Positions 4,603 through 28,010 are shown, numbered from the stretch's first letter. The stretch: 64,000 nucleotides of DNA from an uncultured Alphaproteobacteria bacterium (GCA_944391505.1 CALXTV010000001.1:203952-267951); one strand, 5' to 3'. A program made the numbers and translations. Notes: generated by a model from the sequence alone, not told the origin.

Positions 4603-5856
4603 ATGCATTTAAAAGATTTAAAGCAAAAATCTCCCAAAGAGTTGCTAACTCAGGCGGAGGAACTGGGAATTGAAGACGCATCTTCCATGCGTGTTCAGGA
4701 TTTGATTTTCGCCATCATGAAAAAAGTTGCTTCCGACGACCAGACCATTTACGGCGAAGGAACCATCGAAGTTCTGCAGGATGGTTTTGGTTTTCTGCGC
4801 TCTGCGGAATCAAATTATCTGGCCAGTCCCGATGATATTTATGTTTCACCCTCACAGGTTAAAAAATTCGGCCTGCGCACCGGTGATACCGTTGAAGGCG
4901 AAATCCGCGGCCCAAAAGACAACGAACGCTATTTTGCCTTAACCAAAATCAATACGATTAATTTTGAAGATCCGGAAAAATCCAAACTGCGTGTCAATTT
5001 CGACAACCTTACGCCGCTTTATCCGACCAAAAAGCTTGATTTTGACATCATCTGCGGCGAGAAGGACTATACCACCCGCATTATCGATCTGATTGCCCCG
5101 CAGGGCAAGGGACAGCGCGGATTGATTGTTGCGCCGCCGCGTACCGGTAAAACCGTCATGCTGCAGAATATTGCTCATGCTATTGCCACCAATCACCCCG
5201 AAGTTTATCTGATGGTGCTTTTAATTGACGAACGACCGGAAGAAGTTACCGATATGAGCCGCTCGGTCAAGGGAGAAGTCATTTCTTCCACTTTTGACGA
5301 ACCGGCTGCCCGCCATGTCCAGGTTGCCGAAATGGTTATCGAAAAAGCCAAACGTCTGGTTGAAACCAAAAAAGACGTTGTTATTCTGCTCGATTCCATA
5401 ACCCGTCTCGGCCGCGCATACAACACGGTTATTCCTTCGTCCGGAAAAGTGCTTACCGGCGGTGTCGATGCCAATGCTCTGCAGCGTCCGAAGCGTCTGC
5501 TTGGTGCTGCGCGCAATGTTGAAGAAGGCGGTTCGCTGACCATCATTGCTACGGCGCTTATCGATACCGGTTCGCGTATGGACGAAGTTATTTTTGAAGA
5601 GTTCAAGGGTACCGGCAACTCTGAAATCATCTTGGATCGCAAACTGACCGACAAACGTTTGTTCCCGACCATTGATATTACCCGTTCCGGTACGCGTAAG
5701 GAGGAACTGCTGGTGGATAAGGCTACGCTTTCCAAAATGTGGGTTCTGCGCCGTGTTCTGATGCAAATGGGTATGACTGACGGCATGGAATTTCTGCTCG
5801 ATAAATTGCGTTTATCCAAAGACAATCAGGATTTCTTTAATACCATGAACTCTTGA
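4603..5856 (+). CDS. rho: transcription termination factor Rho
   Basis: 417 aa. N-terminal OB/RNA-binding region and RecA-like ATPase with PPRTGKT Walker A. Long ~500-nt leader upstream, typical for rho. Confidence 0.96.
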
Positions 5857-5882
5857 TAACGATAAAATGCCAAAATCCCTCT

Positions 5883-5912
5883 GCAAAGAGGGATTTTTTT
5901 TGAAAAATAAAT
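5883..5912 (+). terminator. intrinsic terminator downstream of rho
   Basis: Stem ATCCCTCT / AGAGGGAT with GCAA loop, followed by T8 (5905..5912). Confidence 0.8.
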
Positions 5913-5930
5913 TAAATATATTGACAAAAT

Positions 5931-5960
5931 TTTTCTGTCATTATTATACTGACTTAGTTT
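5931..5960 (+). promoter_or_regulatory. sigma70-like promoter (TTGACA – 17/18 nt – TATACT)
   Basis: -35 TTGACA at 5931..5936 and -10 TTATAC/TATACT at 5954..5960. Positioned ~20 nt upstream of the mini-ORF at 5983. Confidence 0.5.
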
Positions 5961-5982: not shown

Positions 5983-6111
5983 ATGTCTTTTTTAGGCAAA
6001 ACATATAAACTCTTTCCTCTTTCCGCAGCTTTCGGCTCGGAAATTTTCGCCGTTATTCTTGCAAAATCTCTTCTAATCAGCATTTTGCTTTTGTTGATTA
6101 TGAACCTCTGA
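5983..6111 (+). CDS. small hydrophobic peptide (42 aa), candidate leader or type-I-toxin-like peptide
   Basis: ATG at 5983 with AAGG 7 nt upstream. My translation is MSFLGKTYKLFPLSAAFGSEIFAVILAKSLLISILLLLIMNL, a single predicted TM helix. Below the 60-aa ORF-track cutoff. Its 3' end lies in a 23-bp direct repeat. Confidence 0.35.
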   Translation: MSFLGKTYKLFPLSAAFGSEIFAVILAKSLLISILLLLIMNL

Positions 6112-6356
6112 GCACTTTTATCGGTAAAATAAAGCTTGGGTGCTTGGAGGATGAAAATCAACAGGCTTTAGGCTTTTTTGAGTTAATTATCAGGATTTTG
6201 CAAACATGAAGACAAACAACCAATTACAAAATAAAGATTTTGTTCTTTCGAAGGTTCTGCTGCTTATGAGCCTCTGATTGCTTTTGGTAATTCGGCAGTC
6301 AGAGGATAAACGCAAAATTACAAGCAGATTAACCTTTAAATCAAAAGAGAAATAAA

Positions 6357-8192
6357 ATGAGCAAATACAGTCAGGCGGTCATCGCCAAAAAACCCGAATT
6401 TTCCTACCTTGATACCGATGCCCCGTTAAGAAACACTTACGGAGACGGCACCGTCAATACCTACAATCCGCAGATTTTTCCTTATGCCGAAAGTTTTATG
6501 CGTACAATTCTGAAACGTGTTAACGATACCTATGCCGCCGTTGTTGAAGACGAACACCGGCAAATGCTTTGCCGAGAGCTTTATAGGCAGTTGAAACATG
6601 ATTTCCGCTTTGATTTTTCCGATCACCTCGGACCGATGCGTCAGCGTGACAAACGCGGCGCCGAAGCTGTTGTTGAAGAGAATGATTATAATATGTTCCA
6701 TTCCTGTTATAAGTTTGTCAATCAGGCAGCACGGGCGCATAGTTTTGGCGAAAAGTTCAACCTGTCGCTGATGTCCGGCCGTGTCAATACCGACAATCAG
6801 ACCGGTCCGGAAATTTGTGATCCTTTTGTTTTTGGGCCGCCGCTTTATCTCTACAGCAAAATTTATCCGAAAGTTGTCGCCATGACTTTGCCCGGTTTTG
6901 ACACGCCTGAAAAAATATCGGCACTCAAAGCACATGAAAAAGAAATGAAAAAAGATATGTTTGCCAAAAAATCTTTGGCGGCAAAAGCTCTGAAGGCCCG
7001 CTGGCATCATCTGATAAATAAGGAATTTATGCCGCAGAATATGGAATTTAAGGACTTAAGCATAAATACCGTCAAGGCTCTTTCCGAACTGCACAAAGAT
7101 GTTTTGACCGAGTTTTCCGCTCAGGTTGAGCAACAGTTTCAAAATGATGTCCGTATGTTGAAAAAAATAATGAAACTGCTGGATAAACAGATGACCTACA
7201 ATAAGGCTAAAGGAACGCCGGAAAATGAATTGGCCTCGTTGCAGTTGGCGTCCGTCCATGCCATGCAGGCCAACGATTTGCTGAAGAACAGTTCGGTAAT
7301 TCAGGTCAGTATTGAAGCAGAAAAGCCGATATTTGCTTTTATGGCCGATGTTCTTGATAATCCGCAGTCGCTTACTGCACGGATTTTTGACAATCCGCAA
7401 ACCCGAACAGTTTTTGAAACTGAAATGAAAAAAATTCATACGACCAAATCGGACAGTAAGTATACGCATCTGCTTGATCATATGGTACCGGCCGGTTCGG
7501 GAAAAATGCCGGCCTATGCCAAAATGCTCGGCGACGAATACGGCGAAGAAATGAACAGAAAACAAATTGCCGAAGCTTTGCGCAGCGGCGAAGCAATGCC
7601 TAAAGTTTCGTTTATGCTGGCCGTTGTTTTGCTGGAAACCGGTGCCAAAATCGAGGGGGGCAGTTCGCAGATTGTTTATGCCCGCCGGATTAAAGAGGCT
7701 TTGGGAAAAGTTTTTGACGAAGCCGTGCGCCAGCCTGGTTTTGACCGGAAGGATATAGACGCCCGCCGCGCCGTAATTGAAAAATTTGATTACAGGACGG
7801 CACAGGCGCAAATCTGGGGTGTTAAAGAAAACGGCAATGTATTGGGTTACCGCGATTTAATCAACGGTAGCGTTAAAATAGATGACAACCTGCTCGATTC
7901 TGTTGCTTCTGTTTCTTCCCGTGCTGCTTTTGACGCTGCTTCCGTCCATCGTTTTTATTCTTTTGTGACCGGTGAACCGATGTCAGAAAATGAAAAGGCG
8001 GCACAGAAAGAAAGAGTTAAAGGAAACCTGCTTCGTTTTGCCGACAATGATGATTTTACCCGCATTTTAGCACCCGGCAGCACTTTTTACAAAAGACTGT
8101 CCATGATAATCAGAAATGATGAAAATGTTCTCGGCCGTCAGGCACAGAAGGCTTATGCTTTTAACAAATATCAGTCGGCGGCGGGATTCTGA
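6357..8192 (+). CDS. hypothetical protein, 611 aa, no signal peptide and no recognisable motif
   Basis: Long clean ORF preceded by AAAAGAGAAATAAAATG. Translationally coupled (2-nt gap) to the downstream S66 peptidase gene. I recognise no Walker, HExxH or other motif. Confidence 0.7.
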   Translation: MSKYSQAVIAKKPEFSYLDTDAPLRNTYGDGTVNTYNPQIFPYAESFMRTILKRVNDTYAAVVEDEHRQMLCRELYRQLKHDFRFDFSDHLGPMRQRDKRGAEAVVEENDYNMFHSCYKFVNQAARAHSFGEKFNLSLMSGRVNTDNQTGPEICDPFVFGPPLYLYSKIYPKVVAMTLPGFDTPEKISALKAHEKEMKKDMFAKKSLAAKALKARWHHLINKEFMPQNMEFKDLSINTVKALSELHKDVLTEFSAQVEQQFQNDVRMLKKIMKLLDKQMTYNKAKGTPENELASLQLASVHAMQANDLLKNSSVIQVSIEAEKPIFAFMADVLDNPQSLTARIFDNPQTRTVFETEMKKIHTTKSDSKYTHLLDHMVPAGSGKMPAYAKMLGDEYGEEMNRKQIAEALRSGEAMPKVSFMLAVVLLETGAKIEGGSSQIVYARRIKEALGKVFDEAVRQPGFDRKDIDARRAVIEKFDYRTAQAQIWGVKENGNVLGYRDLINGSVKIDDNLLDSVASVSSRAAFDAASVHRFYSFVTGEPMSENEKAAQKERVKGNLLRFADNDDFTRILAPGSTFYKRLSMIIRNDENVLGRQAQKAYAFNKYQSAAGF

Positions 8193-8194
8193 CA

Positions 8195-9082
8195 ATGACA
8201 AATAAAAAAATTGCCGTTATCTCGCCCTCTCTGCCTTTAAGCTCCGTTGATGAAATTGCACCGGCCTTAAACCGGTTGTCCGCTTCAGATATTGAAGTTG
8301 AGTTCTATTCCGGAACGGAAAAAATTGCTGCTTTTAACTGCGCCCAAAACGGAAATGCCGATTTGGTAATGGCTTCGCGCGGCGGTTTCAATTCGATTGA
8401 ACTTTTGCCGCAGATAGATTTTTCGACAATAAAAAAACCGCTTTGCGGTTATTCGGACATTACTGTGCTTTTGAATGCCTTACTGGCCAAAACCGGAAAA
8501 ACGCAGTTTCTAGGTCCCAACCTGAAAGCTCTTTGCGTTGATGTTAACGACTATACGCTCAAAAACTTTGTTTCCGTTGCTTTGCAGAATGAAAATACCC
8601 TTTACGAGCCGTCGGAAACTTATTTGGATACGCATGTTTCTAAAACGGATTTTCTTAAAAATCCCGGTTTGACGATTATTAACCCGGGTGTGGCGGAAGG
8701 ACGATTGGTCGGCGGCAATTTATGCAGTCAGATTATGCTTGCCGGCACCGAATATTATCCGGTTTTTGAAGAAATGATTGTTGTTGCCGAAGAAGACGAC
8801 TTGTGTGGTTTGCATACGGTTGATATGTTTTTGCGCAATCTTTGGGCGCTGTTTGAATATGATTTTGCCAAAAACATTAAGGGACTGATAATAGGTCGTT
8901 TTATGCAAAACAGTCGGGTTGATTTACCGGCCTTTGTGCAAAAACTGCAAAGTTTTGAACCTTTACAAAAAATTCCGGTAATTGCCGGTTTTGATACCGG
9001 ACATACATTACCGCAGTTTACGCTTCCTTTGGGACGAAAAGCCGTTCTCAATACCGAAACTTTTCCGCTTTTAAGTTTTTAA
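8195..9082 (+). CDS. S66-family peptidase (LD-carboxypeptidase LdcA / microcin C7 immunity MccF-like)
   Basis: 295 aa. Catalytic-Ser motif CGYSDITVLL, an acidic VVAEEDD region and a GFDTGHTLP His region, matching the Ser-Glu-His triad layout of S66. Confidence 0.8.
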   Translation: MTNKKIAVISPSLPLSSVDEIAPALNRLSASDIEVEFYSGTEKIAAFNCAQNGNADLVMASRGGFNSIELLPQIDFSTIKKPLCGYSDITVLLNALLAKTGKTQFLGPNLKALCVDVNDYTLKNFVSVALQNENTLYEPSETYLDTHVSKTDFLKNPGLTIINPGVAEGRLVGGNLCSQIMLAGTEYYPVFEEMIVVAEEDDLCGLHTVDMFLRNLWALFEYDFAKNIKGLIIGRFMQNSRVDLPAFVQKLQSFEPLQKIPVIAGFDTGHTLPQFTLPLGRKAVLNTETFPLLSF

Positions 9083-9122
9083 AATGCCAAACGCCGGCAG
9101 AATAACCGGCGTCTGGCAAAAG

Positions 9123-9857
9123 TTAATAATTTTTAATTTCCAGTCTTTTTATTTCCGAAAAACCGGTTGACAAAGTAAACCCGGTCAAAACCCTTAATTG
9201 CGTATTCGAATTAATATCGCGGATTTTGGGATATTTTATCGGACTGATTCCAAGAATTTTACCCGGAATTTTTACCACATAAATTGTATTACCGTCTATA
9301 ATTTCCTTGTCCCAGCTTATAACCCGGACATATTCTGTTTTTGCAAAAAGAATATCTTCTTTTTCTTTCATTTCCTTATTCATGGTGTTAATTGCAAAAA
9401 TGATAAATATTATCATATTGACAAGGAGAGAAGCCTCGTAACCGTTAAACCGTGTGTGTTTGCCTGAGCTAAGAGATAAACGATGTTTTACATAATTAAG
9501 TTTAAGCAGATACGAAACATAAGGAATACAGCAATACAAAACAATATTGAAAATCAAGGCAACGGCCAAAGCTATGAGAAATACCGGAATAACATGCAAA
9601 AATAAGACATACATACCGAAATTGATCAGAGACCAGCCTAACCTGACCCAAACGCTTTCAATTTCAACATTGGCGAATTGTAACCTGATGAACATAAGCG
9701 CCGAAATAAAAATACCGGTTAATGCCGGAAATATATTATCTGGCCAGGTAGTCCAAACACAGATAAGACAAAATAAGACAGCTAATCCGCAGAAAATATA
9801 TTCTCCGTGGTCTTTCCAAATCGTGGCAAACTTTTTGCCGTAAATCTTAGTTTCCAT
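9123..9857 (-). CDS. integral membrane protein (4-5 N-terminal TM helices plus a ~90-aa C-terminal soluble domain)
   Basis: 244 aa. Hydrophobic N-terminal two thirds; C-terminal AKTEYVRVISWDKEIIDGNTIYVVKIPGKILGISPIK soluble region. No family assigned. Confidence 0.6.
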   Translation of the reverse strand: METKIYGKKFATIWKDHGEYIFCGLAVLFCLICVWTTWPDNIFPALTGIFISALMFIRLQFANVEIESVWVRLGWSLINFGMYVLFLHVIPVFLIALAVALIFNIVLYCCIPYVSYLLKLNYVKHRLSLSSGKHTRFNGYEASLLVNMIIFIIFAINTMNKEMKEKEDILFAKTEYVRVISWDKEIIDGNTIYVVKIPGKILGISPIKYPKIRDINSNTQLRVLTGFTLSTGFSEIKRLEIKNY

Positions 9858-9924
9858 AATAACAATTTTTAAAGTTAATATTTGTAAAATAATAAAAAAT
9901 TAAACAAATCTTATTATTTCCTGA

Positions 9925-10605
9925 CTATTTGTCAATGTTTTTTAAATATTCTTCCAATTCGTTCATGGAAGAAAAAATATTTGTAATGCCGAGCTGTTCG
10001 ACCTTACTTCGGTAATTTTGATTGTTATTCATTTCGCTGCCGATATATGCAACCGGTGTCATGCCGGCAGCCATGGCCGCCTTCAACCCCGGCAGTGAAT
10101 CTTCAATAACAATGCAGTTTTCCGGTGCTGCATTCATCATTTTGGCTGCAAACAAAAACAAATCGGGTTCGGGCTTTCCGTGTTCGACCTGTTCGGCCGT
10201 AAAAATATGATTATCGGGAAAATATTTCTTAAAATTCATAGCCTTTAATTTAGCTTCCGTTTTGGCCAGAAAACCGCCGGTTGCCAGACAATAAGGAATT
10301 TTTGTGTTTATGAGAATTTCTTCGACACCTTCGGTCGCTTCCAGATTATGCTCGATATCGTATGTTTCGCGTTTTTTCAGCTCCAACAGAAAATCGTCGT
10401 CAATATTGATGCCGATATCTTTCAGATTTTTTATTTTTGTTTTCACGGCCAGTCCGCCGAGAAATTTATCTGCCGTTTCAAAATCCCAGTTAAGGCCGAA
10501 TTTTTCATTAATTAAATCTTGCCAGATTTTAATCCATAATTTTTCGCTGTCTGCCAAAACGCCGTCATAATCCCATATAATAAGTTCAGGTTTATATTTT
10601 TTCAT
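9925..10605 (-). CDS. HAD-superfamily hydrolase (HAD-IA phosphatase / beta-phosphoglucomutase-like)
   Basis: N-terminal LIIWDYDGVLADSE (the DxD nucleophile motif of HAD). 226 aa. Confidence 0.8.
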   Translation of the reverse strand: MKKYKPELIIWDYDGVLADSEKLWIKIWQDLINEKFGLNWDFETADKFLGGLAVKTKIKNLKDIGINIDDDFLLELKKRETYDIEHNLEATEGVEEILINTKIPYCLATGGFLAKTEAKLKAMNFKKYFPDNHIFTAEQVEHGKPEPDLFLFAAKMMNAAPENCIVIEDSLPGLKAAMAAGMTPVAYIGSEMNNNQNYRSKVEQLGITNIFSSMNELEEYLKNIDK

Positions 10606-12212: not shown

Positions 12213-12578
12213 ATGGAACAAAATTTTTCAGATGGGTTGGAGCTGCTCATCAAAAAACACATTTCTGTCGCCGAGCCTGCGGAACTCATATCTGAACCGG
12301 ACAGCAATCTGCGCAAAATATTTAAGGACTTTGTTGAAAAAGCGCAGGAAAAAATGTTATCTATCTATTGCTATTCGCCGGAACTTGATAAAGAGCTGGT
12401 TGAGTTGCAAACAGAGATGAAGCATGTTATTGCCGCGCTTGGAAGAATTCGTCCCGGTTATCTGCAGTATTTAGCTTATCGCGACGTGTTGTCTGTTTGT
12501 GTCTTCTGCCCCTATGTAATTCCACGTCAGGAGATTTACGAAGTCTTTCAAAAAGGCTTAAAAGGACAGGTTTATTGA
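12213..12578 (+). CDS. hypothetical protein (121 aa)
   Basis: ORF between mnmE and mnmG with no recognisable domain. Confidence 0.4.
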   Translation: MEQNFSDGLELLIKKHISVAEPAELISEPDSNLRKIFKDFVEKAQEKMLSIYCYSPELDKELVELQTEMKHVIAALGRIRPGYLQYLAYRDVLSVCVFCPYVIPRQEIYEVFQKGLKGQVY

Positions 12579-12698: not shown

Positions 12699-14552
12699 AT
12701 GAGAAAAGGTTCTGATTTTGATGTCATTGTAGTCGGTGGCGGTCATGCCGGTTGTGAAGCCTGCGCTGCTGCAGCCCGTATGGGTGCCGCAACGCTTTTG
12801 ATTACGCACCGATTGGATACGATTGGCGAAATGTCCTGTAACCCGGCCATCGGAGGTTTGGGAAAAGGACATCTTGTTCGTGAAATAGATGCGCTTGACG
12901 GGCTGATGGGACGGGTTATAGACAAAGCCGGGATTCAGTTCCGTATGTTAAACGCTTCCAAGGGACCGGCAGTCAGAGGTCCGCGCGCGCAGGCAGATCG
13001 GGATTTATACAAAAAATATATGTTCGAAGCCCTACGGAATCAAAAAAATATTTCTTTGCGCGAAGCCGCAGTCGAAGGCTTGTTGATTGATAACGGTTGC
13101 GTAACCGGTGTCAGGCTTGCCGATGGTTCAGAAATTCATGCGGCCGCTGTTGTCCTCACCACCGGAACTTTTTTGAACGGGGTAATGTTTGTCGGTCATG
13201 AAGCAACGCCGGGCGGCCGTGTCGGTGATGCCGCCTGCACCGGTATAACACCGTATTTAAAGTCATTGGGGCTCAAAATCGGTCGCCTGAAAACCGGAAC
13301 GCCGGCTCGTCTGAATGGTAAAACCATTAACTGGAGCATTCTTGAAGCTCAGGACGGCGATGAAAATCCGCAGCCCTTTTCTTATCTGACCGATAAAATT
13401 ACCAATCCGCAAATTCAGTGTTACATAACCCACACAAATGAAAAAACGCACGAAATTATTCGTGATAACTTTTCAAAATGTGCTTTGTTTTCCGGATTGA
13501 TTACCGGTGTTGGGCCGCGTTATTGTCCGAGCATTGAAGACAAACTTGTCAAATTTGCCGATCGAACCAGCCATCAGATATTTCTAGAACCGGAAGGCTT
13601 AAATACCGATGTTGTCTATCCGAACGGTATCTCAACGTCCCTGCCCGCAGATGTTCAGGATCAGTTTATTCACACAATGAAAGGTCTTGAGAATGTCGAA
13701 ATTTTACGCTTTGCCTATGCCATTGAATATGATTACGTCGATCCACAGGAGCTGAATCATACTTTGGCCGTTAAAAAAGTTCCTGGATTATTTCTTGCCG
13801 GACAGATTAACGGTACGACCGGCTATGAAGAGGCTGCGGCACAAGGTTTATTGGCCGGTGTTAATGCCGCCTTATTGGCCGAGGGAAAAGGACGGGAATT
13901 TTTCATTGACCGGAGCATGGCTTATCTTGGTGTTATGGTAGACGACTTAATTACCAAAGGCGTCGACGAGCCGTACCGAATGTTTACCTCTCGGTCGGAA
14001 TATCGTCTGTTTCTGCGGGCAGACAATGCTGATGCCCGTCTGACGGAAATCGGGTATAAAACAGGTTGTGTCAGTGAAAACAGATACAGTGTATTTAAAG
14101 CCAAATATGAACAGATTAACCATTATCATAAACTCTGCGATCAACTTTATATTACGCCGAACGAACTTGAAAAATATAATATCCATACCAAAAAAGACGG
14201 CACCAGACGAACAGCCTTTAATGTTATGTCATATGACGGTGTTTCACGTGAAACAATAGAAAACATTTTTCCCGGTCTTAAAGGTATTCCGGCCGATGTT
14301 TATGAACAAATAGAAATTGAAGCCCGCTATGCCGGTTATATCAAACGCCAGATGGCCGATATAGAAGTGTTTAAAAAAGATGAGAATCTGAAACTGCGCA
14401 GTGATATTGACTATGCAAAAATTGGCGGACTTTCGCGGGAAATGGTAGCAAAGCTGAGCAAAGTTCGGCCTGTAACCATTGGTGAAGCCTCGCGAATACC
14501 AGGTGTAACGCCTGCCGCGATTACAGCCGTTTTAAGCTATGTTAAGAGGTGA
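12699..14552 (+). CDS. mnmG: tRNA uridine 5-carboxymethylaminomethyl modification enzyme MnmG (GidA)
   Basis: 617 aa. FAD-binding [14 protein letters not shown] at the N-terminus. The 3' end contains a parS site. Confidence 0.96.
14240..14255. promoter_or_regulatory. parS centromere site (TGTTTCACGTGAAACA) inside the mnmG 3' end
   Basis: Perfect 16-bp palindrome identical to the canonical ParB-binding parS consensus. Confidence 0.85.
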
Positions 14553-14554
14553 AA

Positions 14555-15172
14555 ATGACTTGCCCGAGTATAAAACAAGCTCTGGATTTATTTGATGAAG
14601 GTTTGGCTGTCATGCGAAAAGAGCAGCCGCGTTTTGCCTTTTACTGTGAAAAATCTTTTCGCAGTCACTGTTGCCTGGTTGCCTGTTGTGCGGAAATGAT
14701 AGCTTCCCGCATAGATAATATTGACGGGCAAAAAGCTTATATATTGGGACTGTTGCACGATTACGGAAAAATGATGCGTGACGCCGACAATAAAGAATAT
14801 TTCCACGGATTGACCGGTTATAACGAAATGAACCGTCTTGGTTATGATGAAGTTGCCCGTGTCTGTCTGACCCATACTTTCCCGGATAAGGATTTTAAAT
14901 ACACCGAATACAGCTATCCGGAAATGCGTAAAACAAAAAAATTATTGGCACAGGTAGATTATGACGATTATGACCGACTTATCCAGCTTTGCGATTTGCT
15001 GGTTGTTGGTATGAATTTTTCTAAAATAAAAGACCGCATGATATTCGTAAAAGACAAATACAGAGTTTCGACAATGGTCATCAAGCGCCGCTATCGTCAG
15101 GCCCTGCGTTTGAAAAATTATTTCGATCGTCGTTGTGGTTGCAACATCTATCGTTTGCTTGGAATCAATTAA
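14555..15172 (+). CDS. HD-domain phosphohydrolase, YqeK-like (paralog 1)
   Basis: GQKAYILGLLHDYGK closely resembles the YqeK Ap4A-hydrolase HD motif (PEKAYLAGLLHDIAK). ~205 aa. An alternative GTG start at 14549 overlaps the mnmG stop. Confidence 0.7.
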   Translation: MTCPSIKQALDLFDEGLAVMRKEQPRFAFYCEKSFRSHCCLVACCAEMIASRIDNIDGQKAYILGLLHDYGKMMRDADNKEYFHGLTGYNEMNRLGYDEVARVCLTHTFPDKDFKYTEYSYPEMRKTKKLLAQVDYDDYDRLIQLCDLLVVGMNFSKIKDRMIFVKDKYRVSTMVIKRRYRQALRLKNYFDRRCGCNIYRLLGIN

Positions 15173-15792
15173 TGAACGAGAATATTTGTCCTACTGTTAA
15201 AGAAGCGGTAAATTTTTGGCTCAAGGGAATTAAATATCGTCAGGAGGAAGACGGTTTTTCCCTAAAAGACGAGTATATTTTTCACACCCAGGGCATAGCT
15301 TTTGTTGCTCGGATTATCGCTTCGCATATTCCGGACATGAATCCGGAAAAAGCATATATATGCGGCCTTTTGCACGATTATGGCAAAAAATACGATGAAA
15401 AGAAAATCGGTCGTTTCCATGGCCTTATCGGTTATCATGAATTGCAGGCTGAGGGTTTTTCTCTTCCGGCAAGAATTTGCCTGACGCACACTTTTCCCGA
15501 AAAGAAAATTCTTTTTTCCGATTTTCCGTCATATCCGCAAAAGGATCTTGAAGAGTGCCAAAAAATATTGAACGAGTTGGAATATAACGATTATGACCGG
15601 CTGATACAATTTGCCGACCGGCTTTTTGAAGGCCTTTCAATGGTTCCTTTTGCTGAGCGGGCAAAAGCCATAGGTGAGCGTTATCATTTGTCTGAATCAA
15701 TTGTCAACAAACTGATAGCAGACGGTCAAAAGCTTAAAGATTTTCTGGATAAACGCTGCGGTATGGATATATATAAAATAATAGGCCTCTGA
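15173..15792 (+). CDS. HD-domain phosphohydrolase, YqeK-like (paralog 2)
   Basis: 206 aa. PEKAYICGLLHDYGK, ARICLTHTFPEK and YNDYDRLIQ are colinear with paralog 1 (~40% identity by eye). The ATG follows the paralog-1 stop directly. The ORF-track start at 15133 was rejected. Confidence 0.7.
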
Positions 15793-27841: not shown

Positions 27842-27917
27842 CCCGAAAATGTTGATTTGTTTATTTTTCCCTTGAAAAAAGGGATAAAAAAAACGATATT
27901 AAAATAAGTTTTTTATT

Positions 27918-28010
27918 GGAGGGCGGCGGGTTAATTTTCCGCCAACCCGGTCAGGTCCGGAAGGAAGCAGCCGTAACGGAAGCGATTAAGGTCGCCCGCT
28001 CTCCGCCTCT
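27918..28010 (+). ncRNA. ffs: signal recognition particle RNA (4.5S RNA)
   Basis: Contains the conserved SRP domain IV sequence GGUCAGGUCCGGAAGGAAGCAGCC. Terminal helix GGAGGGCGGCGGG / CCCGCUCUCCGCCUC. Located immediately upstream of dnaX, a common position. Confidence 0.88.

What the first reader, a model, noticed from the sequence alone, without database searches (positions are those of the whole stretch)
6357..9082. Orphan 611-aa protein translationally coupled to an MccF/LdcA-like S66 peptidase, inserted into the conserved rho–mnmE backbone
rho and mnmE–mnmG–rsmG–parAB are normally contiguous in alphaproteobacteria. Here a 4.7-kb insert carries a 611-aa protein with no recognisable motif or signal peptide, and its stop is 2 nt from the start of an S66 serine peptidase (GYSD Ser, Glu, His layout). 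A membrane protein and a HAD phosphatase lie convergently downstream. S66 enzymes are either murein LD-carboxypeptidases or MccF-type immunity enzymes that hydrolyse aminoacyl-nucleotide antibiotics. Tight coupling to a large unknown protein therefore suggests either a toxin/effector with cognate immunity or an uncharacterised peptide or peptide-nucleotide processing pair.
Basis: partly seen in the sequence, partly recalled or inferred. Interest (0 to 1): 0.65.

Follow-up and report, generated by a model that had tools for sequence, protein, structure and literature searches.

The report
New aaRS-like enzyme with peptidase partner
The "orphan" 611-aa gene is a conserved gene of uncultured gut Alphaproteobacteria that founds an undescribed enzyme family folded like bacillithiol synthase BshC and class I tRNA synthetases, carries its own Leu/Ile-rich leader peptide and RNA pseudoknot, and is only sometimes paired with the MccF-like S66 peptidase, so it is not a toxin-immunity insert.

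Summary
A 611-aa ORF (6357-8192) ends 2 nt before an S66 peptidase gene (8195-9082), between rho and mnmE. The ORF has no Pfam, NCBIfam, PHROG, PADLOC or PDB sequence match.

X611 is not an orphan. About 38 homologues (53-99% identity) occur in gut alphaproteobacterial MAGs, in at least six genomic contexts. S66 follows it in 8 of 19 loci and is absent in 10. A profile search finds a wider, Pfam-less superfamily of 430-560 aa.

Distant relatives sit next to racemases (NSAR-type enolase, alanine, Asp/Glu, DAP) and peptidases (M20, M15, S66).

Best reading: a new ATP-dependent ligase-like enzyme of D-amino-acid or small-peptide metabolism, with S66 (closer to MccF-like proteins than to LdcA) as an optional hydrolase partner.

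Every X611 gene is preceded by a 41-42-codon Leu/Ile-rich leader ORF. Its stop codon lies in a covarying two-helix RNA element.

The toxin/immunity reading is not supported.

The parts
5872..5897 (+). rho terminator hairpin followed by a T-run. It marks the upstream boundary of the X611 transcription unit.
   Evidence: The scan listed this palindromic hairpin on the - strand. The sequence (aaaatccctctgcaaagagggattttttttg) shows the same stem followed by T8 on the + strand. It is conserved in L001-L005.
5921..5950 (+). Promoter-like site TTGACA-18-TATACT, matching 11 of 12 consensus positions.
   Evidence: TATAAT-like boxes lie about 25-35 nt upstream of the leader ORF in the other loci. This is a consensus match only.
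5983..6111 (+). Leader ORF of 42 codons, MSFLGKTYKLFPLSAAFGSEIFAVILAKSLLISILLLLIMNL*. Ten of its last 14 codons are Leu or Ile.
   Evidence: A 41-42-codon ORF with its own Shine-Dalgarno sequence lies upstream of X611 in all 19 loci, whatever the genomic context. It shows synonymous substitutions, a frame-preserving 3-nt indel and TGA/TAA/TAG stop variants.
6105..6169 (+). Conserved RNA element made of two helices. P1 pairs 6105-6115 (which contains the leader stop codon, 6109-6111) with 6140-6150 (GUGCUUGGAGG). T pairs 6131-6138 with 6162-6169. The helices interleave, so they form either an H-type pseudoknot or mutually exclusive structures.
   Evidence: In one search, 99.6% of cells are paired over 19 sequences and 5 of 8 T pairs show compensatory changes. 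Covariation score is 0.417 against 0.199 in shuffles (0 of 500 reach it) and at most 0.13 when partners are slid. The inner part of P1 covaries between clades (AGCAC/GUGCU versus ACGY/RCGU; read by eye from the sequences). There is no Rfam match.
6206..6305 (+). Partial duplicate of the leader. It comprises a 23-codon mini-ORF (6206-6277, ...LLLMSL*) whose stop codon lies in the 5' arm of a hairpin, 6271-6281 paired with 6295-6305 (GCAGUCAGAGG).
   Evidence: repeats D6, D16, I4. It is present only in loci whose leader is about 245 nt long (window, L001-L005, L010). In the short leaders of the 52-54% clade, the equivalent UCAGAGGA is the X611 Shine-Dalgarno sequence.
6357..8192 (+). X611, a 611-aa cytoplasmic protein. 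It founds a Pfam-less family with a BshC/class I aaRS-like Rossmann core plus a long helical coiled-coil insert (about residues 184-308).
   Evidence: Residues invariant across the superfamily are F41, H90, N147, Q296, G429, G434, G435, Q438 and Y441. Nearly invariant are R95, D98, P179, Q316, S338, E427, R470 and G488.
8195..9082 (+). S66 serine peptidase of 295 aa in the MccF-like subgroup, with Ser87, a Glu in AEEDD 198-202, and His270.
   Evidence: It is adjacent to X611 in 8 of 19 loci and four contexts. A distant X relative also has an S66 gene in its operon (L047).
9123..10605 (-). Convergent neighbours: a 244-aa multi-pass membrane protein with no family (9123-9857) and a HAD-IA hydrolase (9925-10605). 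This is context only; they are not shown to belong to the unit.
   Evidence: They sit on the opposite strand and are absent from the X611 loci outside the rho-mnmE context.

Best explanation
[quoted passage not shown] Its nearest solved relative by structure is the bacillithiol 'cysteine ligase' BshC. I infer that it binds ATP, activates a carboxylate (most likely of an amino acid or short peptide) and joins it to an amine. This would make or re-make a small amide or peptide in D-amino-acid or small-peptide metabolism. The downstream, translationally coupled S66 serine peptidase is an optional partner. It would hydrolyse a related L,D- or aminoacyl-type amide bond, either to supply substrate or to turn over product. 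Expression is set by a dedicated leader. A 42-codon ORF ends in a Leu/Ile run, and its stop codon lies inside a conserved two-helix RNA element. Ribosome progress or stalling on that run, for example when Leu/Ile-tRNA is scarce, would remodel the RNA and open the way to X611. Shown: gene reality, family distribution, fold, gene neighbourhoods, leader ORF conservation, RNA covariation. Inferred: ligase chemistry, substrate class, role of S66, direction of regulation.

For: Enzyme-like conservation: H, R, D, N, Q, E, Y and a GG motif are invariant or nearly so across about 20%-identical relatives. H90 follows the first beta-strand, and GGxxQxxY starts a helix after a late strand. By secondary-structure order these are the positions of the nucleotide-binding signatures of HUP enzymes; this is inference.

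Neighbourhoods of distant relatives:
- An NSAR/OSBS-type enolase gene lies directly downstream in 5 loci (typed).
- Alanine racemase plus an M15 peptidase.
- Asp/Glu racemase.
- DAP epimerase plus S66.
- M20 peptidases.
- A fusion to a weak M15-like region.

The X611-S66 pair is kept in 4 contexts.

Leader. In the distant clade the Leu/Ile-coding stretch CUCUGAUU pairs with the X611 Shine-Dalgarno sequence AAUCAGAGG.
Against: - There is no sequence-level link to BshC or any aaRS. hhalign of the superfamily against a BshC profile gives probability 0.1%, Pfam shows no BshC hit even at E<=10, and Foldseek against the PDB found nothing.
- No canonical HIGH or KMSKS motif is present.
- BshC's own reaction has never been reconstituted (PMC5790435), so the nearest structural analogue gives weak functional guidance.
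- The most conserved X611 loops (89-115, 143-178) are modelled with low confidence.
- S66 is absent from 10 of 19 X611 loci, so it is not essential for X611 function.
- Gene neighbourhoods suggest a theme, not a reaction.
- A U-run after helix T occurs in only some loci, so transcription termination is not the conserved output of the leader.
- The hydrophobic leader product could instead be a functional small membrane peptide.
Confidence: 0.42

Rival explanations
1. Murein-peptide recycling module. S66 acts as an LD-carboxypeptidase on the murein tetrapeptide. X611 handles the product, for example as a non-Mur-type peptide ligase or another step that replaces Mpl, MpaA or YkfC.
For: S66 has the LdcA fold and catalytic triad. 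Partners of distant X relatives resemble parts of the ykfABC and ycjG/pepD logic: an enolase-superfamily epimerase or racemase, M20, a VanX-like M15, DAP epimerase and alanine racemase.
Against: S66 scores 81 bits against the LdcA equivalog cut-off of 378. It is far closer to MccF-like proteins than to E. coli or P. aeruginosa LdcA. The enolase partner is closest to N-acyl/N-succinylamino acid racemases and OSBS (1e-65 to 1e-68), not to L-Ala-D/L-Glu epimerase (1e-32). No other recycling genes (ampG, ampD, mpl, nagZ) lie beside X611 in any locus. A Leu/Ile leader is not an obvious control for murein turnover.
Confidence: 0.2
2. Inducible defence against aminoacyl-adenylate-mimicking inhibitors of Leu/Ile-tRNA synthetases. 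The leader senses uncharged tRNA-Leu/Ile. The MccF-like S66 hydrolyses the mimic. The aaRS-like X611 binds or modifies it.
For: S66 is closest to the MccF-like group. MccF enzymes cleave aminoacyl- and peptidyl-adenylate analogues, and stand-alone homologues confer resistance (PMC8323819). X611 has an aaRS-like fold. The Leu/Ile-rich leader is the kind of sensor that a block of LeuRS or IleRS would trigger. S66 and the neighbouring membrane protein diverge much faster than the flanking genes: 60-66% and about 50% identity, against about 89-100%.
Against: S66 is missing from more than half of the X611 loci, while the leader is always present. There is no mcc-like biosynthetic or transporter context. 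The racemase and peptidase partners of distant relatives do not fit a defence role. No PADLOC hit was found, although that library covers anti-phage systems only. The rival is entirely inferential.
Confidence: 0.1
3. Toxin or effector (X611) with a cognate immunity enzyme (S66), carried on an island inserted between rho and mnmE.
For: X611 is a large unknown protein tightly coupled to a member of a family that includes an immunity enzyme. The S66/membrane-protein segment is unusually divergent between close relatives.
Against: X611 occurs without S66 in 10 of 19 loci. It is conserved at 53-99% identity with long invariant blocks, as expected of a housekeeping-type enzyme. It has no signal peptide, toxin domain, secretion-system, phage or mobility genes, tRNA or flanking repeats. 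Composition matches the flanks. Its fold is a ligase-type Rossmann core.
Confidence: 0.04
4. X611 is a BshC-type enzyme proper. It would add cysteine or another amino acid to a sugar-acid scaffold to make a low-molecular-weight thiol or related cofactor in these gut Alphaproteobacteria.
Against: There is no sequence or profile similarity to BshC. No bshA/bshB-like glycosyltransferase or deacetylase lies in any X611 or X-like neighbourhood. The helical insert lies mid-sequence in X611, whereas from memory of the BshC structure paper (not held here) BshC's coiled coil is C-terminal.
Confidence: 0.07

Closest known systems
BshC (bacillithiol biosynthesis cysteine-adding enzyme; Pfam PF10079/PF24850; PDB 4WBD)
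   Different: There is no detectable sequence or profile similarity. The BshC signature blocks (GGQQAGLxTGPLY, WVAGEDHD, AGPGEI-YW) are not aligned to X motifs by hhalign. No bshA or bshB lies nearby. The taxa differ (gut Alphaproteobacteria versus Bacillota and others), as do the gene partners (racemases and peptidases).
Class I aminoacyl-tRNA synthetases and their non-translational paralogues (class I LysRS 1IRX, CysRS, MetRS, MshC 3C8Z, GluQRS 4A91)
   Different: X611 has no HIGH or KMSKS signature, no anticodon-binding domain and no Pfam tRNA-synt hit. It is much more divergent than the known paralogues.
MccF and MccF-like S66 peptidases (E. coli MccF 3TLA; B. anthracis 3GJZ, BA_5613 4E5S; Listeria Lmo1638 4H1H) versus LdcA (5Z01, 1ZRS)
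   Same: The window's S66 has both S66 domains and the Ser-Glu-His triad. Its best PDB sequence matches are the MccF-like proteins at about 1e-40.
   Different: It is not in an mcc cluster and is shorter (295 aa against about 330-370). Similarity to bona fide MccF (1e-19) and to LdcA (3e-15) is modest in both cases. The substrate is unknown.
Leader-peptide attenuators of amino-acid operons and aaRS genes (ilv/leu leaders, pheM-pheST), and ermC/cat-type translational attenuation
   Same: It is a short upstream ORF with a dense run of one class of codons (8-11 Leu/Ile among the last 14). Its end overlaps conserved alternative RNA pairings. In one clade the codon run pairs with the Shine-Dalgarno sequence of the downstream gene.
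   Different: The two conserved helices interleave like a pseudoknot rather than forming the classical 1:2/2:3/3:4 hairpin series. A terminator U-run is present in only some loci. The regulated gene is not a known branched-chain amino-acid gene. There is no Rfam family for it.
N-succinylamino-acid racemase / M20 desuccinylase D-to-L amino-acid conversion operons, and van-type Alr/VanX modules
   Same: The distant X relatives' partners belong to the same families as these enzymes: NSAR-type enolase, M20, GNAT or HTS acyltransferases, alanine racemase and an M15 dipeptidase.
   Different: Those pathways are known from my own background knowledge, not tested here. They use a GNAT acyltransferase or an ATP-grasp ligase where X sits. 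No such pathway has been described with an aaRS-like component.

Membership tests
BshC (PF10079) | Sequence match to the BshC family model or profile | tested here: not met
   Pfam shows no BshC hit for any of 23 superfamily members, even at E<=10. hhalign of A3 against a 16-sequence BshC profile gives probability 0.1%.
BshC (PF10079) | Rossmann core with connecting-peptide inserts plus helical coiled-coil architecture | tested here: met
BshC (PF10079) | Co-occurrence with bshA/bshB and production of bacillithiol | tested here: inconclusive
   No glycosyltransferase or deacetylase lies in any of the roughly 30 neighbourhoods examined. Whole genomes were not available.
Class I aminoacyl-tRNA synthetase | HUP Rossmann catalytic fold | tested here: met
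Class I aminoacyl-tRNA synthetase | HIGH and KMSKS signature motifs | tested here: not met
   Neither motif is present. Only an invariant His (H90 in SDHLG / ETGxH) after strand 1, and GGxxQxxY after a late strand, occupy comparable positions by secondary-structure order.
Class I aminoacyl-tRNA synthetase | Anticodon-binding domain and tRNA charging | tested here: not met
   No tRNA-synt or anticodon Pfam domain was found. tRNA charging itself cannot be tested with these tools.
LdcA (murein tetrapeptide LD-carboxypeptidase), for the S66 gene | S66 N- and C-terminal domains with the Ser-Glu-His triad | tested here: met
   PF02016 at 8.7e-17 and PF17676 at 1e-19. GYSD Ser87, AEEDD 198-202 and GHT His270.
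LdcA (murein tetrapeptide LD-carboxypeptidase), for the S66 gene | Score above the NCBIfam LdcA equivalog cut-off | tested here: not met
   NF008424 scores 80.9 bits against a cut-off of 378. E. coli LdcA 5z01 matches at only 3e-15 and P. aeruginosa LdcA at 2e-7.
MccF (microcin C immunity peptidase), for the S66 gene | Closest sequence relatives are MccF or MccF-like enzymes | tested here: met
   Lmo1638 4h1h at 3.9e-40 and BA_5613 4e5s at 2.4e-39. MccF proper matches at 7e-20 to 9e-19.
MccF (microcin C immunity peptidase), for the S66 gene | Location in an mcc-type cluster, or demonstrated hydrolysis of aminoacyl-adenylate analogues | tested here: not met
   No MccB-like, MccC-like or MccE-like gene lies in the window neighbourhood or the related loci. 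Hydrolytic activity cannot be tested with these tools.
Toxin-immunity pair | Obligate adjacency of toxin and immunity genes; a toxin or secretion-associated domain; a mobile or polymorphic context | tested here: not met
   S66 is absent from 10 of 19 X611 loci. There is no toxin, secretion or phage domain. There is no tRNA or flanking repeat.
Leader-peptide attenuator | Conserved short upstream ORF enriched in regulatory codons | tested here: met
   The ORF has 41-42 codons in 19 of 19 loci, with a Shine-Dalgarno sequence and synonymous changes. Leu/Ile make up 8-11 of the last 14 codons, against 12% in X611.
Leader-peptide attenuator | Alternative RNA structures, including an intrinsic terminator or a Shine-Dalgarno-sequestering helix, coupled to the leader ORF | tested here: inconclusive
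   Two covarying helices overlap the leader stop codon. A U-run after helix T is present in only some loci. Shine-Dalgarno pairing with leader codons is predicted in the 52-54% clade. No experimental probing is available.

The most novel reading that the evidence does not exclude
X611 defines a new enzyme superfamily: class I aaRS/BshC-fold, tRNA-independent ATP-dependent ligases. In many bacterial lineages these would work with racemases and D-specific peptidases to build or salvage D-amino-acid-containing small molecules. In gut Alphaproteobacteria the family would be controlled by a previously undescribed ribosome-sensing leader, a Leu/Ile-rich peptide whose stop codon is embedded in a pseudoknot. 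Because BshC's chemistry is itself unsolved, working out X could also show how BshC-type enzymes activate their substrate.
Probability: 0.3. Interest if true: 0.75.

Novelty: new variant of a known kind. Interest (0 to 1): 0.58.

Why it matters
If the ligase reading is right, this is an uncatalogued branch of the aaRS-like fold, absent from Pfam and NCBIfam. It is spread over several bacterial lineages and repeatedly wired to racemases (enolase-type, alanine, Asp/Glu, DAP) and to S66, M20 and M15 peptidases. That points to an unrecognised route in D-amino-acid or small-peptide metabolism.

Uncultured gut Alphaproteobacteria from human and animal samples carry it in all 19 related loci examined here, so it bears on how these organisms live.

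Its nearest structural relative, BshC, has a reaction that has resisted reconstitution. A second, independent family with the same fold and informative gene partners gives a new handle on that problem.

The leader combines a conserved Leu/Ile-rich ORF with a covarying pseudoknot-like element that contains the ORF's stop codon. It is a compact, testable example of ribosome-mediated regulation with no Rfam counterpart.

Tried and rejected
- **Family libraries for X611.** Pfam, NCBIfam, PHROGs and PADLOC gave nothing. Scanning all 23 superfamily members against Pfam at E<=10 gave only scattered noise.
- **PDB sequence search.** The family profile at E<=10 gave zero hits.
- **AlphaFold database search.** The afdb50 library was not available.
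- **hhalign against BshC.** Neither the single BshC sequence nor a BshC profile gave any signal.
- **Second homology search.** Searching with the mixed alignment A3 returned only the close family, because word-based candidate selection was swamped. This search was wasted.
- **BshC structure paper.** PMC4303302 is not held.
- **Rfam.** Neither the gathering nor the permissive threshold gave a credible family for the leader.
- **Metagenome scan with the leader motif.** It returned only rho-leader-X611 loci of close relatives, so there is no evidence that the leader controls other genes. The pattern was specific to one clade.
- **Leader-like small ORFs upstream of distant X relatives.** None were found.
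- **Island signatures.** There are no flanking repeats, tRNA genes or composition shift.
- **L-Ala-D/L-Glu epimerase as the enolase partner.** Considered and set aside, because that gene is much closer to NSAR/OSBS enzymes.
Full report
**Observation**

The window holds an ATG-initiated 611-codon ORF at 6357-8192 on the + strand. I call it X611. A 295-codon ORF at 8195-9082 starts 2 nt after the X611 stop codon (TGA-CA-ATG).

- rho at 4603-5856
- a 244-aa multi-pass membrane protein on the opposite strand (9123-9857)
- a HAD-IA hydrolase on the opposite strand (9925-10605)
- mnmE, a 121-aa ORF, mnmG, two tandem rsmG-like genes and parA

X611 has no match in Pfam, NCBIfam, PHROGs or PADLOC. A family profile finds no PDB sequence at E<=10. 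The downstream gene has both S66 domains and the GYSD (Ser87), AEEDD and GHT (His270) motifs.

Nothing marks a recent insertion. Composition matches the flanks, and there are no tRNA genes, flanking repeats or mobility genes. That rho and mnmE are 'normally contiguous' rests on general knowledge. I did not test it.

**X611 is not an orphan**

A search of 5.8 billion proteins finds 38 relatives at 53-99% identity, nearly all 602-612 aa. In reference genomes they occur in 18 loci. Seventeen are in uncultured gut alphaproteobacterial MAGs from human, chicken, sheep, deer and buffalo samples, including Candidatus Scatocola faecigallinarum at 90% identity. The eighteenth (L018) is a contig binned as Bacteroidaceae.

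The alignment shows long invariant blocks:
- FDFSDHLG.MRQRDKRG
- N.SLMSGRVN.DN.TG.EI.DPF
- SSV.Q.S.EAEKP
- VSFML.V.L.E.GAKIEGGSSQIVYA
- YRT.QAQ.WG

These blocks are typical of an enzyme.

X611 sits between rho and mnmE only in the window and four close relatives. Elsewhere it lies in at least five other contexts. S66 directly follows X611 in 8 of 19 loci, spread over four different contexts. It is absent in 10 loci, including lineages at 70% and at 52-54% identity. One locus is truncated. So the pair is a real, mobile-together unit in part of the family, but S66 is optional.

**A wider superfamily**

An exhaustive profile search of 1.84 billion cluster representatives adds about 25 distant relatives of 430-560 aa, at E from 1e-90 to 1e-4. 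None has a Pfam domain.

Across about 20%-identical members, F41, H90, N147, Q296, G429, G434, G435, Q438 and Y441 are invariant. R95, D98, P179, Q316, S338, E427, R470 and G488 are nearly so.

**Fold**

- then a run of class I synthetases, GluQRS and MshC

The fold assignment is therefore robust: a class I aaRS-like Rossmann core, with BshC as the closest solved relative.

The assignment is fold-level only. Foldseek found nothing. Pfam shows no BshC hit in any member at E<=10. Profile-profile comparison with a BshC alignment gives probability 0.1%; I first checked the BshC sequence against 4WBD.

By secondary-structure order, H90 follows the first strand and GGxxQxxY begins a helix after a late strand. 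HUP enzymes carry their nucleotide-binding signatures at these positions. This is inference, not a superposition. BshC's own reaction has not been reconstituted (PMC5790435).

**Gene partners**

I read the neighbourhoods of twelve distant relatives:
- An enolase-superfamily gene lies immediately downstream, often overlapping, in five (P0047, P0049, P0052, P0053, P0062). Its closest solved relatives are N-acyl/N-succinylamino-acid racemases and OSBS (1e-65 to 1e-68), not L-Ala-D/L-Glu epimerase (1e-32).
- P0063 is followed by alanine racemase and an M15 (VanX-family) peptidase.
- P0053 is preceded by an Asp/Glu racemase.
- P0058 is followed by a DAP epimerase and, three genes on, another S66 peptidase.
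- P0040 and P0062 adjoin M20 peptidases of the DapE/CPG2 type, and P0062 also adjoins aminotransferases.
- P0064 is fused to a weak M15-like region and followed by an amino-acid permease.

Four unrelated racemase families and three peptidase families recur around this superfamily. That places it in D-amino-acid or small-peptide metabolism. Which reaction it performs is not shown.

**The S66 gene**

Its best PDB sequence matches are:

| Protein | E-value |
|---|---|
| MccF-like Lmo1638 and BA_5613 | about 1e-40 |
| MccF proper | about 1e-19 |
| E. coli LdcA | 3e-15 |
| P. aeruginosa LdcA | 2e-7 |

The NCBIfam LdcA equivalog scores 81 bits against a cut-off of 378. It is not an ordinary ldcA orthologue. 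It also does not sit in an mcc cluster.

In 19 human-gut metagenome contigs of close relatives, identity to the window differs sharply between genes:

| Gene | Identity to window |
|---|---|
| Rho | mostly 99-100% (95% in one contig) |
| X611 | mostly 86-94% |
| MnmE | 89% |
| S66 | 60-66% |
| membrane protein | about 50% |

The segment downstream of X611 therefore evolves, or is exchanged, much faster than its surroundings.

**A dedicated leader**

All 19 X611 genes, whatever their context, are preceded on the same strand by a 41-42-codon ORF with its own Shine-Dalgarno sequence. A TATAAT-like box lies about 30 nt upstream of it. In the window the ORF is 5983-6111, downstream of a promoter-like site at 5921-5950 that matches 11 of 12 consensus positions.

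The reading frame is conserved. It shows synonymous changes, a frame-preserving 3-nt indel and TGA/TAA/TAG stop variants. The N-terminal part varies. Of the last 14 codons, 8-11 are Leu or Ile in every locus, against 12% in X611.

The stop codon lies in the 5' arm of helix P1 (6105-6115 paired with 6140-6150). A second helix, T (6131-6138 paired with 6162-6169), interleaves with P1.

Over 19 sequences, 99.6% of cells pair and 5 of 8 T pairs show compensatory changes. The covariation score exceeds all 500 shuffles and all slid controls. The inner part of P1 also covaries between clades. The two helices form either an H-type pseudoknot or mutually exclusive structures.

A U-run follows T in some loci only. 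In the 52-54% clade the Leu/Ile-coding stretch CUCUGAUU is predicted to pair with the X611 Shine-Dalgarno sequence AAUCAGAGG.

In the window's clade the 3' half of the leader is duplicated. The copy has a 23-codon mini-ORF (6206-6277) and a hairpin (6271-6281 paired with 6295-6305).

Both leaders I folded are more stable than shuffled controls (z about -3.6). No Rfam family matches.

I read this as a ribosome-dependent attenuator in which progress or stalling on the Leu/Ile run sets X611 expression. The direction and mechanism are inferred. The alternative, that the ORF encodes a functional small hydrophobic peptide, is not excluded.

**Verdict**

The toxin/immunity reading does not survive.

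My best explanation (confidence about 0.4) is that X611 is a new family of BshC/class I aaRS-fold, probably ATP-dependent, amide-forming enzymes in D-amino-acid or small-peptide metabolism. In this model the MccF-like S66 enzyme is an optional hydrolase partner, and a Leu/Ile-sensing leader controls expression.

The rivals are:
- a murein-peptide recycling module (0.2)
- an inducible defence against aminoacyl-adenylate mimics (0.1)
- a BshC-type thiol ligase (0.07)
- a toxin-immunity pair (0.04)

I rate it a new variant of a known kind and moderately interesting. The fold class and the regulatory principle are both known. The family, its partner set and the RNA element are not described in the libraries I searched.

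Noticed in passing
window 5983-6169 (and L001-L018 upstream of each X611 gene): A conserved 41-42-codon Leu/Ile-rich leader ORF. Its stop codon lies in a covarying two-helix (pseudoknot-like) RNA element, and no Rfam family matches it.
   Followed up: yes
window 6206-6305: The 3' half of the leader is partly duplicated in tandem: a 23-codon mini-ORF ending ...LLLMSL* plus the hairpin CCUCUGAUUGC/GCAGUCAGAGG. It occurs only in the clades with leaders about 245 nt long. Its UCAGAGGA corresponds to the X611 Shine-Dalgarno sequence of the short-leader clade, but here it lies about 50 nt upstream of the X611 ATG.
   Followed up: partly
window 8195-9857 versus L027-L045: In close relatives Rho is about 100% identical to the window, and X611 and MnmE about 89-93%. 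S66 is only 60-66% identical and the 244-aa membrane protein about 50%. The window's S66 is closer to those of the more distant L010 and L004 (74% and 71%) than to that of L005 (66%). This suggests fast divergence or allele exchange in this segment.
   Followed up: partly
window 14549-15172 and 15133-15792: Two tandem rsmG-like ORFs (207 and 219 aa) cluster together and lie between mnmG and parA. L001-L003 show the same pair, with the second copy matching the window's RsmG at only about 32-36% identity.
   Followed up: no
window 12213-12578: A 121-aa ORF with no family lies between mnmE and mnmG. A 47%-identical copy is present in L005 and some metagenome contigs, but no copy is found in L001-L003.
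   Followed up: no
L001-L003, L005 (e.g. L001 10780-11547, - strand): Relatives carry an extra 255-269-aa ORF (cluster c22) between the S66/membrane-protein genes and the HAD gene. The window lacks it, and L001 lacks the 244-aa membrane protein. Gene content between S66 and HAD is therefore variable.
   Followed up: no
L022/L023 6001-8754 (protein P0064): A 917-aa relative looks permuted or chimeric. It has an X-like body lacking its N-terminus, then an X-like N-terminal segment, then a weak M15 (D-Ala-D-Ala dipeptidase-like) region. An amino-acid permease gene follows.
   Followed up: partly
L018 (CAVIWQ010000024.1, labelled Bacteroidaceae): A contig binned as Bacteroidaceae carries the alphaproteobacterial leader and the start of X611, with the same upstream genes as L012. 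It is probably a mis-binned contig.
   Followed up: no
L047 1-1647 and the P0052 contig: Genuine class I synthetase genes lie a few genes upstream of X-like genes in two distant lineages: a class I LysRS and a MetRS-like gene. This may be coincidence.
   Followed up: no
window 27915-28010: Bacterial small SRP RNA (Rfam RF00169, 64.7 bits). No tRNA genes occur anywhere in the 64-kb window.
   Followed up: no
protein P0039: A 346-aa protein with SIS-type Pfam domains matches X611 at 83% identity over 11% of its length. It probably comes from a chimeric or frame-fused gene call on a short contig.
   Followed up: no
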